Below are positions 9,619 to 23,107 of a DNA stretch of 32,136 nucleotides, piece by piece. Within the stretch, counting starts at the first letter, position 1; each line of letters begins with the position of its first letter. The notes beneath the pieces are model-generated. The model was not told the origin of the DNA. It saw only the letters and a program-made list of their open reading frames with translations, and made no database searches. A program made the position numbers and the translations under genes. Origin of the DNA: an uncultured Synergistales bacterium. GTDB lineage: Bacteria; Synergistota; Synergistia; Synergistales; Aminobacteriaceae. Where the stretch lies: assembly GCA_937897575.1 (NCBI GenBank), contig CALCQG010000005.1:80526-112661 (forward strand), read 5' to 3'.

Positions 9619-9936
9619 CGATCGATACGAAACGATAATGCCGTTTCGGTCGCCTGTTAATCTCGAGTGGAACAAGCAGTATAAACGGTCAACGTAAACT
9701 TTCGCAGAAAGTCGAGTTATCTGCTTTACGGTGTTCCAGGAAAATCGATCAACGCACCACTTGTTCTTTGGCAAAGATAAGGCAGTGGTTGTCTGCTGTG
9801 TCAACTATTATTGTGGACATAACGAGAGGAGGAAAGGAACTCACGTGAGATGGTTCTATTTATAGAATGACAAAAAGGATTGTCGTTATATTTCATAGAC
9901 GATAAGGCAGAGATTTAGATTAAGAAGGTGTTTTTT

Positions 9937-11388
9937 TTGGAAAATCTAGGCATGTTAGTTCAAGAACTTTGTAAGTTACCCAATGAAACCTCTTGGGTAG
10001 AGTTTAAGCAGGACAACTGTGATCCTTATATGATTGGCAGGAGCATTAGTGCATTGGCAAACAGTGCGGCACTCTATGACAAGAGTTGCGCGTATATGTT
10101 GTGGGGAGTAGAAGATAGTGCTTCCCATACGATACGAGGTACAAATTGCAATCTGCAAACCCAGAAGAAAGGTAATCAAGAGTTAGAAAACTGGCTACGT
10201 TGTCTGCTATCAAGCAATGCAGAGTTTGATTTTCATATGGTTTTGATAGACGATAAGAGTGTGGGAGTGCTCGTCGTTTATAAAGCTGCAAATCAAACGG
10301 TTACTTTTGAAAAAACAGATTATATTAGAGTCGGGAGCTATACAAGGAAGCTAAAAGATTTCCCTTCGTTGCAAACTCAACTTTGGGATAAAATCCGGAG
10401 TTCCAGATTCGAAGAACGGTACGCTAAACAAGATTTGCCTTTGAACGACGCGCTTCAATTATTAGATTATGGTGTTTATTTCGATATCAATGGCATGCCA
10501 CAGCCAACAAATTTACAAGGTGTGGCACACTTTATGTTGGAAGAAGAAATTATCATAAAACAAGATAATGGGTTATTTGCCATTACCAATCTAGGTGCGA
10601 TCCTTTTCGCAAAGCAACTTATAAAATTCCCGAGACTTGCTAGGAAAGCAATACGAGTTGTTCAATTTCAAGGTAATAACCGCTTGAATATCTTGAAAGA
10701 AGATGTTGGTAGCAGGGGATATGTTGTTGGGTTTGAAGGACTTCTGAAGTATATAGAAGCATTAATTCCAACGCGGGAGTTGATCGTAGGAGGTTTACGT
10801 AAAAAAGAATCCTCCTACCCGCTTCTAGCGATAAGAGAAGTCGTTGCGAATGCGTTGGTTCATCAGGATTTTTCGATAACTGGCTCTGGTCCGATTATTG
10901 AGATATTCGAAAATCACCTTGAAATCACGAATTCAGGGACACCATTAGTTGACATAAAAAGAATCATCGATAATCCGCCGAGATCACGTAATGAAAAATT
11001 GGCTTCTCTTATGAGAAGACTTAGAATGTGTGAAGAACTTGGTTCTGGTTGGGATAAGATTGTTATTTCATGTGAATTCTCGCAGTTACCTGCACCTAGG
11101 ATTCATCTCTATGAAGAAAGTACACGAGTTACTTTGTTTTCGGAAGTTCCTTTTTCTAGTATTGTTGCTGAAGATAGATTATGGGCCACCTATTTACATG
11201 CTTGTATAAAACAGGTAGAGGGAGAGCAACTAACAAATAGTTCTTTACGACAACGTTTTGGACTGAAAGAAAGTGCTTCTGGAACCATCTCACGGTTGAT
11301 TCGAGATGCTGTGGAACGCAAGCTCATCAAACCCCTTGATCCGAACACGGCGCCAAGGCACATGAAATACGTGCCGATCTGGGCCTGA
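9937..11388 (+). CDS. Schlafen/AlbA_2-domain protein with RecG-C (HATPase_c_4) region and C-terminal wHTH
   Basis: ETSWVEFK, ISALAN, LWGVED (AlbA_2); AIREVVANALVHQDF, EITNSG, RSRNEKLA..MRR...CEE.GSG (HATPase_c_4); likely TTG start 9937 after AGAAGGTG (alternative GTG 9928); ~40% GC in a sampled line. Confidence 0.88.
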   Translation: MENLGMLVQELCKLPNETSWVEFKQDNCDPYMIGRSISALANSAALYDKSCAYMLWGVEDSASHTIRGTNCNLQTQKKGNQELENWLRCLLSSNAEFDFHMVLIDDKSVGVLVVYKAANQTVTFEKTDYIRVGSYTRKLKDFPSLQTQLWDKIRSSRFEERYAKQDLPLNDALQLLDYGVYFDINGMPQPTNLQGVAHFMLEEEIIIKQDNGLFAITNLGAILFAKQLIKFPRLARKAIRVVQFQGNNRLNILKEDVGSRGYVVGFEGLLKYIEALIPTRELIVGGLRKKESSYPLLAIREVVANALVHQDFSITGSGPIIEIFENHLEITNSGTPLVDIKRIIDNPPRSRNEKLASLMRRLRMCEELGSGWDKIVISCEFSQLPAPRIHLYEESTRVTLFSEVPFSSIVAEDRLWATYLHACIKQVEGEQLTNSSLRQRFGLKESASGTISRLIRDAVERKLIKPLDPNTAPRHMKYVPIWA

Positions 11389-18840: not shown

Positions 18841-20019
18841 TTACGACTCCTGCTTGGCTTTTCTGTTGTTCAGCGCGGCCTCCATCCGGTCGAAGGCCTT
18901 CTTCAGCCCCTCCATGGAGAGCGTGCACGCCACGCGGATGTGGCCGGCGCCGCTCGTACCGAAGGCCGACCCCGGGATCACCGCCACTTTCGCCGTGTCG
19001 AGGAGCCACCAGGCCATCTCTTCGTCCGTCATGCCCGTCCCGGTGATGTCCGGGAAGAGGTAGAAGGCGCCCTGGGGCTCCGGACAGGTGATGCCCGGCA
19101 TGGCGTTCAGGCGCTTGGCACTGTACCCGACGCGCTGCTCGTAGTCCTTCGTCCGCTCCCGAACCTTCTCGTCCTGAGTGGCCAGGGCGTAGACCCCGCC
19201 CTTTTGCGCCGGGGCGTTCACGCCGAAGGTCTGCCCCGCCGAGAGGGTGATCATGACCTTGAGAAGTTCCGTGGGAGCGATGGCGTACCCCAGCCGCCAG
19301 CCCGTCATGCAGTGGCTCTTGGACAGGCCGCCGACGACGAGGGTACGCTCGGCCATCCCGGGGATGGAGCGCATGGGGACGTGCTTGCCCGAGTAGACGA
19401 AGGCCTCGTAGATCTCGTCGGAGATCACGATGAGGTCGTGCCTCTTCGCCACCTCGGCGATGCCCTCCGCCTGCTTTCTGGTCAGGACGCCGCCCGTCGG
19501 GTTGCAGGGGGAGTTGACGACGAGGATCTTTGTCCTCGGCGTCACGGCCGTCTCGTAGTCCTCGGCCGTGGGGAAGAAGCCGTTCTCCGCTCTCGACGGG
19601 ACGGACACCACCACGCCGCCGTTGTCTTTGATCTGCTGGTAGTAGGCCGTGAAGCTCGGGTCGGGCAGCAGGACCTCGTCGCTCGGGTCGAGCATGGCCT
19701 GGAAGCAGAGGTGGGGTCCCTGGATGGCCCCCGAGGTGATGAAGACCTCCTCGGGGAGGACGTCCAGGTCGTGGTGCCTCTTCCAGTAGGCGCAGACCTC
19801 TTTCCTGAAGTCCTCGAACCCCGGGAGGGGCGGGTAGTGGGTGAACCCCTTCCTGGCAGCGCCCGCCGCCGCGTCGACGATGTTGGGCTCCGTGTCGAAG
19901 TCGGGCTCTCCGATGCTGAGGTTGCTCAGGTCGCGCACGGCCGCCGCCGCCTCGAAGATCTTCACGATGCCCGAGGGCTGGATGTTCCGAAATCGCTTCG
20001 CTATCTTGATCGCAGACAT
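18841..20019 (-). CDS. PLP-dependent class I/II aminotransferase (AspC/aromatic type)
   Basis: LSIGEPDF, NSPCNPTG, SDEIY, GLSKSHCMTGWRLG, PGSAFG; GAGGAGG RBS; minus-strand TATAAT 20064-20069. Confidence 0.93.
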   Translation of the reverse strand: MSAIKIAKRFRNIQPSGIVKIFEAAAAVRDLSNLSIGEPDFDTEPNIVDAAAGAARKGFTHYPPLPGFEDFRKEVCAYWKRHHDLDVLPEEVFITSGAIQGPHLCFQAMLDPSDEVLLPDPSFTAYYQQIKDNGGVVVSVPSRAENGFFPTAEDYETAVTPRTKILVVNSPCNPTGGVLTRKQAEGIAEVAKRHDLIVISDEIYEAFVYSGKHVPMRSIPGMAERTLVVGGLSKSHCMTGWRLGYAIAPTELLKVMITLSAGQTFGVNAPAQKGGVYALATQDEKVRERTKDYEQRVGYSAKRLNAMPGITCPEPQGAFYLFPDITGTGMTDEEMAWWLLDTAKVAVIPGSAFGTSGAGHIRVACTLSMEGLKKAFDRMEAALNNRKAKQES

Positions 20020-20283: not shown

Positions 20284-20312
20284 TTGACAAGACGGTCGAA
20301 GAGGTTTAGTAT
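20284..20312 (+). promoter_or_regulatory. Sigma70-type promoter for the leader-YkvI transcript
   Basis: TTGACA 20284-20289, 17 nt, TAGTAT 20307-20312. Confidence 0.75.
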
Positions 20313-20361
20313 GATCCGAAATTCGCCTCCGGGCGATATTCTGCGGAGAGGAGAGGGGCCC

Positions 20362-20454
20362 ATGATCCGGACAGCTGCAGTCGAGAAAAAGTATGGCTGG
20401 CGCGCGTATTTTGGCTTTACCGACGGGACCCCACCTCATTCCGGCGGCCGGTAG
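20362..20454 (+). CDS. Putative attenuator leader peptide (30 aa, aromatic control codons), not in ORF track
   Basis: GGAGAGGAGAGGGG RBS; MIRTAAVEKKYGWRAYFGFTDGTPPHSGGR; Y11 W13 Y16 F17 F19 encoded TAT TGG TAT TTT TTT. Confidence 0.75.
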   Translation: MIRTAAVEKKYGWRAYFGFTDGTPPHSGGR

Positions 20455-20483
20455 GCGCGTGGCAAGTCGTACCAAGGATGAGG

Positions 20484-20516
20484 AGGGTCCCCCCGTACAC
20501 GGAGGGGCCCTTTTTT
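20484..20516 (+). terminator. Attenuator terminator upstream of the YkvI gene
   Basis: AGGGTCCCCCCG-taca-CGGAGGGGCCCT followed by a T-run; its left arm can pair alternatively with 20425-20431. Confidence 0.85.
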
Positions 20517-20612: not shown

Positions 20613-21761
20613 GTGGCTGAAAACGAGACAAAGCAAGAGGCGAAGAAGGGGAATTTCCTGACGTTCTTCATGGAGTACGACTGGTACAAGAAGTACCTGA
20701 TGCCCGGGTTCATCGCTCAGTCGGTGCTCATCGCCGGAGGGTACGGCACGGGCCGGGAGCTCGTGGAGTACTTCGTCCAGTACGGGCCGACGGGCGGGCT
20801 GATGGGCATGGGGCTCACCACCCTGCTGTGGGCGGTCTTCTTCGCCATCAGCTTCGAGTTCGCACGGGTCTTCAGGGCCTACGACTACAGGACCTACTTC
20901 GAGAAGCTCATCGGCAAGGGGTGGATCCTCTACGAGATCGCCTTCCTCGTGCTCCTCTCCCTCATCATGGGCGTGGTGGGCGCGGCGTCGGGGAGCATCC
21001 TGAAGGACACCTTCGGCATTCCGCCCCTCGTGGGCTCGGGGATCTTCCTGATCTTTGTGGCCTTCCTGACCTACAGCGGCAGCCGGGCCATCGAGGTGGC
21101 CCTCTCCTGGTGGTCCTATGTCCTGTACGCCGTCTACATCCTGTTCCTGTACTTCGGCTTGACTCAATTCGGCGACGCCATCTCGGCCAACTTCGCCGCC
21201 GGCGTGGTGAAACCCGGGTGGCAGATGGGCGGCTTCAAGTACGCCTTCTACAACATCGCCGTCGTCACGACGGTGCTCTTCTCGCTGCGGGAGATCAAGA
21301 CCAGGAAGGAGGCCATCCTGTCCGGCGTCATCGCCTCGCTGATCTGCATCATCCCGGCGGTTCTCTTCTATGTGACCATCATCGCCTTCTACCCCGACGT
21401 GGTCACCATGGAGCTTCCGGCGAACACCGTGATCGCGAAGATGGGCATGCCGATGCTCCTCGGAGCGTGGATCATCGTGCTCTTCGGCACCATGATCGAG
21501 ACGGGCGTGGGGTTCTTCCACAGCATCAACGAGCGGATCAACGCGACCCTCATCGCGAAGCGGGGCGTCGGGATGAGCAACACGGCACGAGGCCTCGTCG
21601 GCGTCGGCCTCGCCGTCATCGGCCTGGGGATATCGAACTTCGGCCTCATCGGCCTCATCGCCCAGGGGTACGGCACCATCAGCTGGGTGTTCTTCATCCT
21701 GCAGGGCGTCTGTCTCTTCACCATCGGCATCTACAAGATCTCCAAGGCGCCCAAGAACTAA
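20613..21761 (+). CDS. YkvI-family membrane protein, probable amino-acid transporter
   Basis: PGFIAQSVLIAGGYGTGRELVEYF signature, about 10 TM segments, LIGLIAQGYG; GTG start after GAGGAGAGG. Confidence 0.88.
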   Translation: MAENETKQEAKKGNFLTFFMEYDWYKKYLMPGFIAQSVLIAGGYGTGRELVEYFVQYGPTGGLMGMGLTTLLWAVFFAISFEFARVFRAYDYRTYFEKLIGKGWILYEIAFLVLLSLIMGVVGAASGSILKDTFGIPPLVGSGIFLIFVAFLTYSGSRAIEVALSWWSYVLYAVYILFLYFGLTQFGDAISANFAAGVVKPGWQMGGFKYAFYNIAVVTTVLFSLREIKTRKEAILSGVIASLICIIPAVLFYVTIIAFYPDVVTMELPANTVIAKMGMPMLLGAWIIVLFGTMIETGVGFFHSINERINATLIAKRGVGMSNTARGLVGVGLAVIGLGISNFGLIGLIAQGYGTISWVFFILQGVCLFTIGIYKISKAPKN

Positions 21762-21843: not shown

Positions 21844-22944
21844 TCAGGCCGTCACAAGCCTCTTTAAAAACTCCTCGAGGGCGACGGGCGCCGGGATTCG
21901 GAGGCGGATGGACCGGTCGTCGCAGCCGAAGAACCCCGCGCCGCCCTCGCAGGCTATCCCGCTGTCGGCGAGGCGCTGCACGAGGTTCCCCTCCCGCTGG
22001 GAGAGGAAGAGTATGGGGACCCGCACGTCCGTGTCCGCCACGGTCCAGCCGGGTTTCTTTCCGAGAGCCTCCATGGTCCGCTCCTTGGCCGTCCGGATGT
22101 AGGACCTGCTTCGCTCGAGGTACTCCCCGTCCTCCAGGATGGCCTCCGCCATGGCGGCCGAGGCGGAGTCCACGGTGAAGACGGGCTGGACCGTCCAGTA
22201 GAGGCGGACGAGTTCGGGGTCCCGCGCCACGGCGTACCCCACTCGGATGCCCGCCGCGCCCCACCCCTTGGAAAAGGACCGGCAGGTCACCACGTTGGGA
22301 AGGTTCAGGCAGGCGGCGGACTCGCTGTCGGGGATGAAGTCGCCGTAGGCCTCGTCGGAGAAGACCCACACCCCCTTGTCCATGGCGGCCCTGGCGATTC
22401 GCTCCAGGTCGGCGAGGGGCAGGACCTGCCCCGTGGGGTTGTTCGGCCGGTCGAGGTAGAGCACCGCCGGTTTCCTTTCCAGGCTCGCGAGGAGTTCGTC
22501 GGGGTATATGGCGAACCGGGGGGCCTTCAGCGTGACGGGGGCATACTCCGCTCCGTTGTAGAGCCCCTGAAGGACGGCGTCGGTGAACTGGGGGGAGATG
22601 CCGCAGAAACTCGTCCCCGGCCTCAGAAGGATCCGGCTCAGGGTGAGGAGCACGCCCATGGAGCCGAGGCCGGTGAGGAACTGGTCCTCGGAGACGCCCC
22701 ACTCCCGGTAGTGACGGGCGAGTTTTTTCCGCAGCGCGGCCTGTTCGTTGGGGGGGTAGGAGGAGAGCTCTACGCTCCTCGACCCGTCGAAGAACTCCAG
22801 CAGGGGCCTCGGCGCCCCCAGGGGGTTGGTGCCCAGGGCGCAGTCGATGACCGTCATGCCGTCGGGGTACCGCACCGGCGCCGCGTCGGCGTACCCCTTC
22901 TGTCCGATATCAAAAAGATGGCGGGGCAGGTTTCCGTTCCACAT
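21844..22944 (-). CDS. Histidinol-phosphate aminotransferase-like PLP enzyme (HisC/CobD family)
   Basis: GTNPLG, DRPNNPTG, DEAYGDF, RSFSKGWGAAGIRVGY; ATG 22944 with GGAG 8 nt upstream. Confidence 0.85.
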   Translation of the reverse strand: MWNGNLPRHLFDIGQKGYADAAPVRYPDGMTVIDCALGTNPLGAPRPLLEFFDGSRSVELSSYPPNEQAALRKKLARHYREWGVSEDQFLTGLGSMGVLLTLSRILLRPGTSFCGISPQFTDAVLQGLYNGAEYAPVTLKAPRFAIYPDELLASLERKPAVLYLDRPNNPTGQVLPLADLERIARAAMDKGVWVFSDEAYGDFIPDSESAACLNLPNVVTCRSFSKGWGAAGIRVGYAVARDPELVRLYWTVQPVFTVDSASAAMAEAILEDGEYLERSRSYIRTAKERTMEALGKKPGWTVADTDVRVPILFLSQREGNLVQRLADSGIACEGGAGFFGCDDRSIRLRIPAPVALEEFLKRLVTA

Positions 22945-23107
22945 GGCGCACACTCCAATCCGGTCAGGGTCGTTCCATTATAGAGCAAAGGGCGGTCCGG
23001 AAAACGACGAGGCACTCCTCTGTCCGCCGGGGGATGCTCTGGGTACAGGAGGGCGGCGGGCACGCTTTCGCGTCGGATCGCCCTCGGCATCCGCCTCCGT
23101 GGGCGGT

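What the first reader, a model, noticed from the sequence alone, without database searches (positions are those of the whole stretch)
20284..20516. Leader-peptide attenuator sensing all three aromatic amino acids upstream of a YkvI transporter
Seen: promoter, strong RBS, and a 30-codon ORF with Tyr-Gly-Trp-Arg-Ala-Tyr-Phe-Gly-Phe using TAT/TTT codons although neighbouring genes favour TAC/TTC. Three competing helices: protector (20391-20398 GTATGGCT with 20465-20472 AGTCGTAC, extended by 20400-20405 with 20455-20460); antiterminator (20425-20431 GGGACCC with 20485-20491 GGGTCCC, plus 20434-20442 CCTCATTCC with 20476-20483 GGATGAGG); terminator 20484-20516. The control codons lie on the protector's 5' arm. 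Known: this is the trp/phe/his attenuation logic. Inference: stalling on Tyr/Trp/Phe frees the antiterminator. A mixed-aromatic attenuator on a YkvI gene is not one I know, and it would assign aromatic amino acids as substrate of this poorly characterised family.
Basis: partly seen in the sequence, partly recalled or inferred. Interest (0 to 1): 0.88.

Follow-up and report, generated by a model that had tools for sequence, protein, structure and literature searches.

The report
Aromatic-sensing attenuator before YkvI transporter
A tiny gene rich in tryptophan, tyrosine and phenylalanine codons most likely acts as a starvation switch for an uncharacterised transporter, and the same RNA switch is re-used by related bacteria with different sensor codons for different amino-acid genes, so the codons hint at what the transporter carries.

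Summary
Confirmed. Promoter, ribosome site, 30-codon leader (20362-20454...YGWRAYFGF...), antiterminator and terminator are present. In the transporter's own clade, 8 of 15 rows carry the leader, and all 8 encode W, Y and F. The genome (96% complete) shows no aroC, trpA, PDT or PDH. The protein is YkvI-like with a LeuT/APC fold. The leader belongs to a Synergistota-wide RNA scaffold (89 of 141 genomes). Its control codons track the downstream gene in 72 of 73 classified cases: Leu/Ile/Val for ilvH, Met/Cys for metY/metQ, Phe/Tyr for phenylacetate-CoA ligase. This is very probably PBC-10 of Stav 2019, filed there as a protein-binding candidate; I could not compare sequences directly. Correction: the protector helix is strong here but not conserved. 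Phe/Tyr attenuators on transporters were already proposed (uORF-12). No expression data were found. Aromatic import is inferred; broader neutral or D-amino acid uptake is a rival (racemase neighbours). This scan reported the same family on other DNA (e1-7311919).

The parts
20284..20312 (+). sigma-70-type promoter (-35 TTGACA, 17 nt, -10 TAGTAT); start of transcription inferred near 20319
   Evidence: a TTGACA box stands at a like distance in orthologous leaders
20346..20358 (+). purine-rich ribosome-binding site of the leader ORF
   Evidence: duplex with anti-SD -8.0 kcal/mol
20362..20454 (+). 30-codon leader ORF
   Evidence: same frame and stop position as in the family
20392..20418 (+). control codons Tyr11, Trp13, Tyr16, Phe17, Phe19
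   Evidence: W/Y/F in 8 of 8 leader-bearing rows of the clade; family control codons peak 9 to 3 codons before the core
20391..20472 (+). member-specific protector helix (20391-98/20465-72, 20401-07/20455-61, 20411-16/20446-51)
   Evidence: probability 0.92-0.94 when not covered by a ribosome; no family-wide signal
20425..20491 (+). antiterminator: core 20425-31 with 20485-91, upper stem 20434-45 with 20466-83, small inner hairpin around the leader stop codon
   Evidence: own partner -29.7 kcal/mol, better than 98% of other members' partners
20484..20516 (+). intrinsic terminator with U6 tail
   Evidence: a terminator was found in 128 of 131 family hits
20613..21761 (+). YkvI-like membrane transporter, 382 aa, LeuT/APC fold
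   Evidence: no Pfam or NCBIfam hit; Atlas YkvI clusters 0.97-0.98; model pLDDT 82; Foldseek AgcS, AdiC, MhsT
21844..22953 (-). convergent HisC-like PLP aminotransferase, a conserved neighbour of the transporter

Best explanation
A ribosome-dependent transcription attenuator. RNA polymerase starts near 20319 and a ribosome loads on the leader ORF. If charged tRNA for Tyr, Trp or Phe is short, the ribosome stalls at codons 11-19. That covers the 5' arm of the local protector but leaves 20425-20445 free, so the antiterminator forms before the terminator's 3' arm emerges, and the transporter gene is transcribed. If all three are plentiful, the ribosome runs over the core to the stop codon, which lies inside the antiterminator loop. 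The terminator then forms and transcription ends near 20516. The transporter most likely imports aromatic amino acids for a host that appears unable to make them. The element is one member of a Synergistota-wide scaffold (probably PBC-10) whose control codons are swapped to suit the downstream gene. Shown here: anatomy, conservation, pairing specificity and the codon-gene match. Inferred: translation of the leader, stalling, termination in vivo, and the substrate. Confidence is about 0.9 for attenuation and about 0.6 for aromatic import as the main function.
For: Leader present in 9 of 14 orthologous loci from relatives and 7 of 80 metagenomic homologue loci, all 7 aromatic-rich. In the window's clade, 8 of 15 rows bear a leader and all 8 encode W, Y and F. 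Family geometry: 128 of 131 hits have a uORF and a terminator; the stop ends 27-33 nt after the core in 117 of 128. An ORF with a strong SD crosses the core in one frame in 106 of 124, against 4 and 9 in the other frames. Own antiterminator partner beats the median foreign partner in 95% of 124 (-28.5 vs -21.2 kcal/mol). The antiterminator is favoured in 93-98% of 115 members while the ribosome is 3 or more codons before the core, and control codons stop at exactly that border (0.79 at -3, 0.23 at -2). Codon class matches gene class in 72 of 73; shuffles average 35.7, maximum 49. No aroC, trpA, PDT or PDH in the own genome. LeuT/APC fold with amino-acid transporters on top.
Against: No experiment and no transcript data. 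5 of 14 orthologous loci lack the leader, three of them at 75-77% identity. Two close members lack the stop codon, and the ORF runs through the terminator (L052, L215). At equilibrium the full-length terminator wins in 88-100% of members at every ribosome position, so read-through needs kinetic control that was not modelled; loss of the antiterminator once the core is masked is built into the simulation. Without any ribosome the window's full-length RNA favours the antiterminator (0.79), unlike a classic attenuator. Whether Phe19 (and Phe17) counts depends on the assumed footprint. The upper stem alone is only modestly partner-specific (80% better than median, 31% in the best tenth). Sister clades have mixed Ile/Tyr/Phe or His codons. 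One Met-rich leader precedes a PaaK-like ligase (L058). Genomes are kin, so the shuffle test overstates.
Confidence: 0.8

Rival explanations
1. The attenuator is real, but the transporter is a broad importer of large neutral amino acids, possibly D-isomers or peptides. Aromatic starvation is only the signal chosen in this lineage.
For: Sister-clade genes (53-59% identical) are followed by a class III PLP enzyme whose best solved relative is broad-specificity amino-acid racemase (E 5.7e-170; such a neighbour at L009, L011, L012, L221, L222, L224, L225, L231). The same YkvI-racemase pair is described in Pyrococcus (PMC13628549, passages and introduction). Sister-clade leaders mix Ile with Tyr/Phe, and a distant paralogue clade carries Leu/Ile/Val leaders. 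The top fold matches include the broad transporter MhsT.
Against: The window's clade has nearly pure W/Y/F codons and no racemase beside it. The own genome's best matches to the racemase are 29% full length and 42% over 226 aa at a contig end.
Confidence: 0.3
2. A protein dimer binds the palindrome and prevents terminator formation (the published guess for PBC-10); the ORF is incidental.
For: Proposed in PMC6429828 (passage); the GGGNCCC element is conserved.
Against: It does not explain the single conserved frame with strong SD (106 of 124), the fixed stop position or control codons that track six pathways. The palindrome is what one arm needs to pair with both the core and the terminator's 3' arm, and the core varies together with that arm.
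Confidence: 0.05
3. A metabolite- or tRNA-binding RNA (riboswitch or T-box) with an overlapping ORF by chance.
For: A terminator/antiterminator platform upstream of amino-acid genes.
Against: No Rfam match; few invariant bases; specificity follows codon content rather than RNA sequence.
Confidence: 0.03
4. A constitutive, leaky terminator; the leader is a relic that no longer regulates in this genome.
For: Leader lost in one subclade and stop lost in some members; whole-leader fold not unusual.
Against: All parts are intact. The window's core differs from the family's commonest core, and its partner arm has changed with it. The host appears auxotrophic.
Confidence: 0.07

Closest known systems
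PBC-10 motif (Stav et al. 2019, PMC6429828; I read passages of the main text, Table S1 rows, supplementary text parts 1-2 of 4 and the legend of Fig. S7, not the figure or alignment)
   Same: Synergistota; terminator plus alternative structure; palindrome; top genes ilvH and phenylacetate-CoA ligase; amino-acid transporters; several copies per genome.
   Different: The text I read mentions no ORF and guesses protein binding. Here a conserved leader ORF with swappable control codons explains it. No direct sequence comparison was possible.
uORF-12 and uORF-13 aromatic attenuator candidates of Firmicutes, and aroR of Corynebacterium (as described in the PMC6429828 supplement)
   Same: Phe/Tyr-rich leader peptide with terminator; uORF-12 lies mostly upstream of amino-acid transporters.
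   Different: Other phyla; no Trp codons described; my model finds nothing under E 9e-4 in 101 genomes of the phylum of a Pelosinus record; those motifs serve one pathway.
Enterobacterial trpL, pheL, hisL, ilvL, thrL attenuators (mechanism recalled; also outlined in PMC9413887 passages)
   Same: Stalling on control codons favours the antiterminator; read-through to the stop favours the terminator.
   Different: No conserved 1:2 protector here; the stop lies in the antiterminator loop; one homologous scaffold serves many amino acids; the target is a transporter.
YkvI-like PH0137 of Pyrococcus horikoshii (PMC13628549, passages and introduction)
   Same: YkvI family; proposed amino-acid importer next to a broad racemase, as in the sister clade here.
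   Different: Controlled by a DNA-binding FFRP sensing Ile isomers; substrate untested; I did not align PH0137 itself.

Membership tests
ribosome-dependent transcription attenuator | short leader ORF with ribosome-binding site | tested here: met
   106 of 124 in one frame
ribosome-dependent transcription attenuator | control codons for the amino acid served by the downstream gene | tested here: met
   72 of 73 classified members; for this transporter the substrate is unknown, so the match is inferred
ribosome-dependent transcription attenuator | mutually exclusive antiterminator and terminator, conserved | tested here: met
ribosome-dependent transcription attenuator | stall leaves the antiterminator free, read-through disrupts it | tested here: met
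   equilibrium simulation only; control codons end 3 codons before the core
ribosome-dependent transcription attenuator | conserved 1:2 protector hairpin (trp type) | tested here: not met
   strong in the window (-33.8 vs -19.7 kcal/mol) but own partner beats the median in only 56% of 115
ribosome-dependent transcription attenuator | translation- and amino-acid-dependent termination in vivo | not testable with these tools
   needs reporters or Term-seq
PBC-10 | Synergistota range, several copies per genome | tested here: met
PBC-10 | most common genes ilvH and phenylacetate-CoA ligase | tested here: met
   34 ilvH and 8 PaaK-like among 128; a named Thermovirga MAG has ilvH, two PaaK-like and one small-protein copy. 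metQ/N (10), POR gamma (9) and YkvI (17) are also frequent in my set
PBC-10 | terminator, alternative structure, palindrome | tested here: met
PBC-10 | sequence match to the published alignment or to NC_016148.1/318758-319077 | not testable with these tools
   the figure is an image; the named record was not returned
T-box / riboswitch (Rfam 15) | match to a curated model | tested here: not met
YkvI-like / APC superfamily | sequence-feature and fold likeness | tested here: met
   Atlas 0.98; Foldseek TM 0.69 to AgcS and AdiC; no curated YkvI profile matched in Pfam or NCBIfam
YkvI-like / APC superfamily | transport of aromatic amino acids | not testable with these tools
   needs uptake assays

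The most novel reading that the evidence does not exclude
A whole phylum uses one homologous attenuator scaffold, earlier filed as a protein-binding candidate, and retunes it by swapping control codons (Leu/Ile/Val, Ile only, Met/Cys, Met/Thr, Phe, Phe/Tyr, Trp/Tyr/Phe). The codons then act as a readable substrate label. Here they make this YkvI clade an importer of all three aromatic amino acids under OR-logic starvation control, and mark YkvI paralogues, SBP_bac_3 and SSF transporters and an unknown WRGPFEG small protein with their own amino acids.
Probability: 0.6. Interest if true: 0.8.

Novelty: new variant of a known kind. Interest (0 to 1): 0.66.

Why it matters
It gives a testable substrate for a YkvI clade; my searches found no tested substrate in print. 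It offers a mechanism for an RNA motif whose discoverers called its clues ambiguous. It extends leader-peptide attenuation to Synergistota, amino-acid fermenters of digesters, gut and mouth (ecology recalled). One scaffold with exchangeable codons is a natural experiment on how sensors are retargeted, a cheap way to annotate orphan transporters, and a possible modular biosensor. The mechanism itself is classical.

Tried and rejected
Rfam: nothing relevant. Pfam and NCBIfam: no hit for the transporter. A strict pattern scan of the own genome found only this copy plus one false hit; the model later found a second, Met-type copy. A loose pattern over 41 genomes matched no more often than its reversed control and served only to pick seed loci. 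Model R1 kept just 5 base pairs and its alignment misplaces the 3' half, so pair counts on columns were not made; partner-swap energies were used instead. Sequencing runs: no RNA holder listed. The named T. lienii record was not among the 33 loci returned. The careful tree did not finish; the quick tree is cited. Rejected: protector as a family feature; the long 427-aa start at 20478 for the transporter, since it begins inside the terminator region and orthologues start near 20613. Literature searches for a prior description turned up only Stav 2019 as relevant. PMC2965389, PMC8632094 and PMC9413887 (passages) do not describe it. Subscription journals are not covered, and eight of the eleven Stav supplement files were not read.

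Full report
Observation. The window holds a sigma-70-type promoter at 20284-20312, a purine-rich ribosome site, and a 30-codon ORF at 20362-20454 with Tyr11, Trp13, Tyr16, Phe17 and Phe19. These use TAT and TTT, against 15 of 110 Tyr and 9 of 176 Phe codons in nine neighbouring genes. The leader as a whole folds no better than shuffles (z -0.75), and Rfam offers nothing, so the case had to come from comparison.

Orthologues. The downstream 382-aa protein has matches in 20 of 41 genomes. Of 14 orthologous loci (37-79% identity), 9 carry promoter, leader ORF, core and terminator and 5 do not; of 12 distant paralogues (about 25%), 5 carry the same scaffold with Leu/Ile/Val-rich codons. Among 80 metagenomic homologue loci, 7 have an upstream hit at E<0.001, all aromatic-rich. 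In a quick tree of 49 selected rows the window's clade has 15 rows (support 100). Eight bear a leader, all eight with W, Y and F (some rows are near-identical), and the seven leaderless rows form one subclade.

The family. A model from 15 leaders (nearly sequence-only, and covering just three codons before the core) hit 89 of 141 genomes of the phylum at E<=0.05. Of 150 listed matches (81 more were not listed) I analysed 130, leaving out 7 seen earlier and the 13 weakest, plus a second copy in the own genome: 131 in all, 12 of them training sequences. Named records place the family in Synergistota: 10 of 13 Synergistota ilvH loci hit at E<0.001 and 3 weakly, while 0 of 20 other ilvH loci hit. 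In 101 genomes of the phylum of a Pelosinus record the best E was 9.7e-4 (12 genomes at E<=0.05, not inspected).

Geometry. 128 of 131 have a uORF and a terminator (dropped: one contig end, two without a detected hairpin). The stop ends 27-33 nt after the core in 117 of 128. Among 124 unique members an ORF with SD of -6 kcal/mol or better crosses the core in one frame in 106, against 4 and 9 in the other frames. A member's 5' strand pairs with its own 3' strand at a median of -28.5 kcal/mol against -21.2 for other genomes' strands; 95% beat the median and 65% are in the best tenth. For the upper stem alone the figures are 80% and 31%.

Codons follow genes. I sent 85 downstream proteins to Pfam and 15 to NCBIfam, and assigned the rest by likeness of their N-termini. 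Leu/Ile/Val leaders precede ilvH (34). Ile runs precede a 2-oxoacid oxidoreductase gamma subunit (9), Ser/Thr dehydratase (3) and AzlC (1). Met/Cys precede O-acetylhomoserine sulfhydrylase (5) and MetQ/MetN-like genes (10), Met/Thr precede aspartokinase or homoserine dehydrogenase (3), and Phe/Tyr precede phenylacetate-CoA ligase (7 of 8). The dominant codon class matched the gene class in 72 of 73; shuffles averaged 35.7 and peaked at 49 (kin are not independent). Left out of that count: 17 YkvI, 6 SBP_bac_3, 1 SSF and 31 unassigned. Control residues peak 9 to 3 codons before the core and vanish after it. This calibrates the codons as a label, which is the basis for the substrate inference.

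Mechanism. In the transcript ending before the terminator's 3' arm, the antiterminator dominates in 93-98% of 115 members while a modelled ribosome is three or more codons before the core, and in none once it covers the core (the latter is built in). At full length the terminator wins at equilibrium in 88-100%, so the switch must be kinetic; this is inferred. In the window, the full-length ensemble shows the antiterminator only when the ribosome sits around codons 10-16, depending on footprint; earlier positions give protector plus terminator. The protector is exceptional here (-33.8 vs -19.7 kcal/mol) but shows no family-wide signal (56% of 115). Without any ribosome the window's RNA favours read-through (0.79), because bases just before the start codon can pair with the terminator's 3' arm.

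Transporter. No Pfam or NCBIfam hit; Atlas clusters named YkvI score 0.97-0.98; the model (pLDDT 82) matches LeuT/APC-fold amino-acid transporters at TM up to 0.70. The own genome (96.3% complete) shows no chorismate synthase, TrpA, prephenate dehydratase or prephenate dehydrogenase. In the window's clade 5 of 6 leader-bearing genomes lack chorismate synthase, while 3 of 3 leaderless ones have it and TrpA; but one leader-bearing genome has both, and in the sister clades 4 of 8 leader-bearing genomes have both, so this is soft. A HisC-like aminotransferase is a conserved neighbour. Sister-clade genes precede a broad-specificity racemase homologue, as for PH0137 in Pyrococcus (PMC13628549, passages and introduction), which keeps broader or D-amino acid import open.

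What is known. Stav et al. 2019 (PMC6429828; passages, Table S1 rows, supplementary text parts 1-2, legend of Fig. S7) describe PBC-10 in Synergistaceae: terminator, alternative structure, palindrome, ilvH and phenylacetate-CoA ligase as top genes, several copies per genome, protein binding cautiously guessed. A named Thermovirga MAG shows that pattern with my model: ilvH, two PaaK-like genes recognised from their translations, and one small-protein gene. Identity is very likely but untested by sequence. The same supplement proposes Phe/Tyr attenuators on transporters in Firmicutes (uORF-12), so a mixed aromatic attenuator on a transporter is not new in kind. My searches found no paper describing leader peptides in this family or a tested YkvI substrate; subscription journals are not covered. 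This scan's notes hold the same family from another genome (e1-7311919, seen after my own analysis) and a Phe/Tyr leader before a YkvI-like gene (e1-7542073); neither is used as support.

Verdict. A real, well-conserved attenuator of a known mechanism; a new variant by its phylum-wide, re-tunable scaffold, its triple aromatic signal and its reinterpretation of PBC-10. Interest 0.66.

Noticed in passing
L057, L064, L066, L067, L072-L075, L078, L087, L099, L100, L108, L114, L131, L134, L136, L139, L140, L155, L157, L161 (first ORF after the attenuator), L296: Leu/Ile/Val leaders control a stand-alone small protein of 37-75 aa ending in [WF]RGPFEG.R, some with the motif twice, one locus with two such genes (22 loci). 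No Pfam, NCBIfam or Atlas hit for those tested, no relevant paper, not found in the own genome. Possibly a branched-chain-starvation effector or an arrest peptide.
   Followed up: partly
L173 (G000:C19:14819-14918, +): Second family member in the own genome: leader with MMMCM before a MetN-like ABC ATPase.
   Followed up: yes
L058:504-601: Met/Cys-rich leader before a PaaK-like CoA ligase, the one mismatch; perhaps a ligase for a Met-derived acid.
   Followed up: no
L052, L215, L111: Members whose leader ORF has no stop before the terminator and runs through it.
   Followed up: no
L083, L098, L110, L124, L126, L141; L130, L162; L153, L154; L133: Phe-only leaders before SBP_bac_3 proteins; Tyr/Phe/Trp leaders before an SSF symporter; Ile-rich leaders before an unclassified membrane protein; Cys/Met leader before cysE.
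   Followed up: partly
L009, L011, L012, L221, L222, L224, L225, L231: YkvI gene followed by a homologue of broad-specificity amino-acid racemase, as in Pyrococcus.
   Followed up: partly
window 18841-20019 (-): Divergent class I aminotransferase sharing the intergenic region; not a conserved neighbour in the loci checked.
   Followed up: partly
window 9928-11388 (+): AlbA_2 (Schlafen) plus HATPase_c_4 protein, possibly defence-related.
   Followed up: no
window 20351-20361: A copy of the palindromic element just before the leader start codon can pair with either terminator arm in untranslated RNA.
   Followed up: partly
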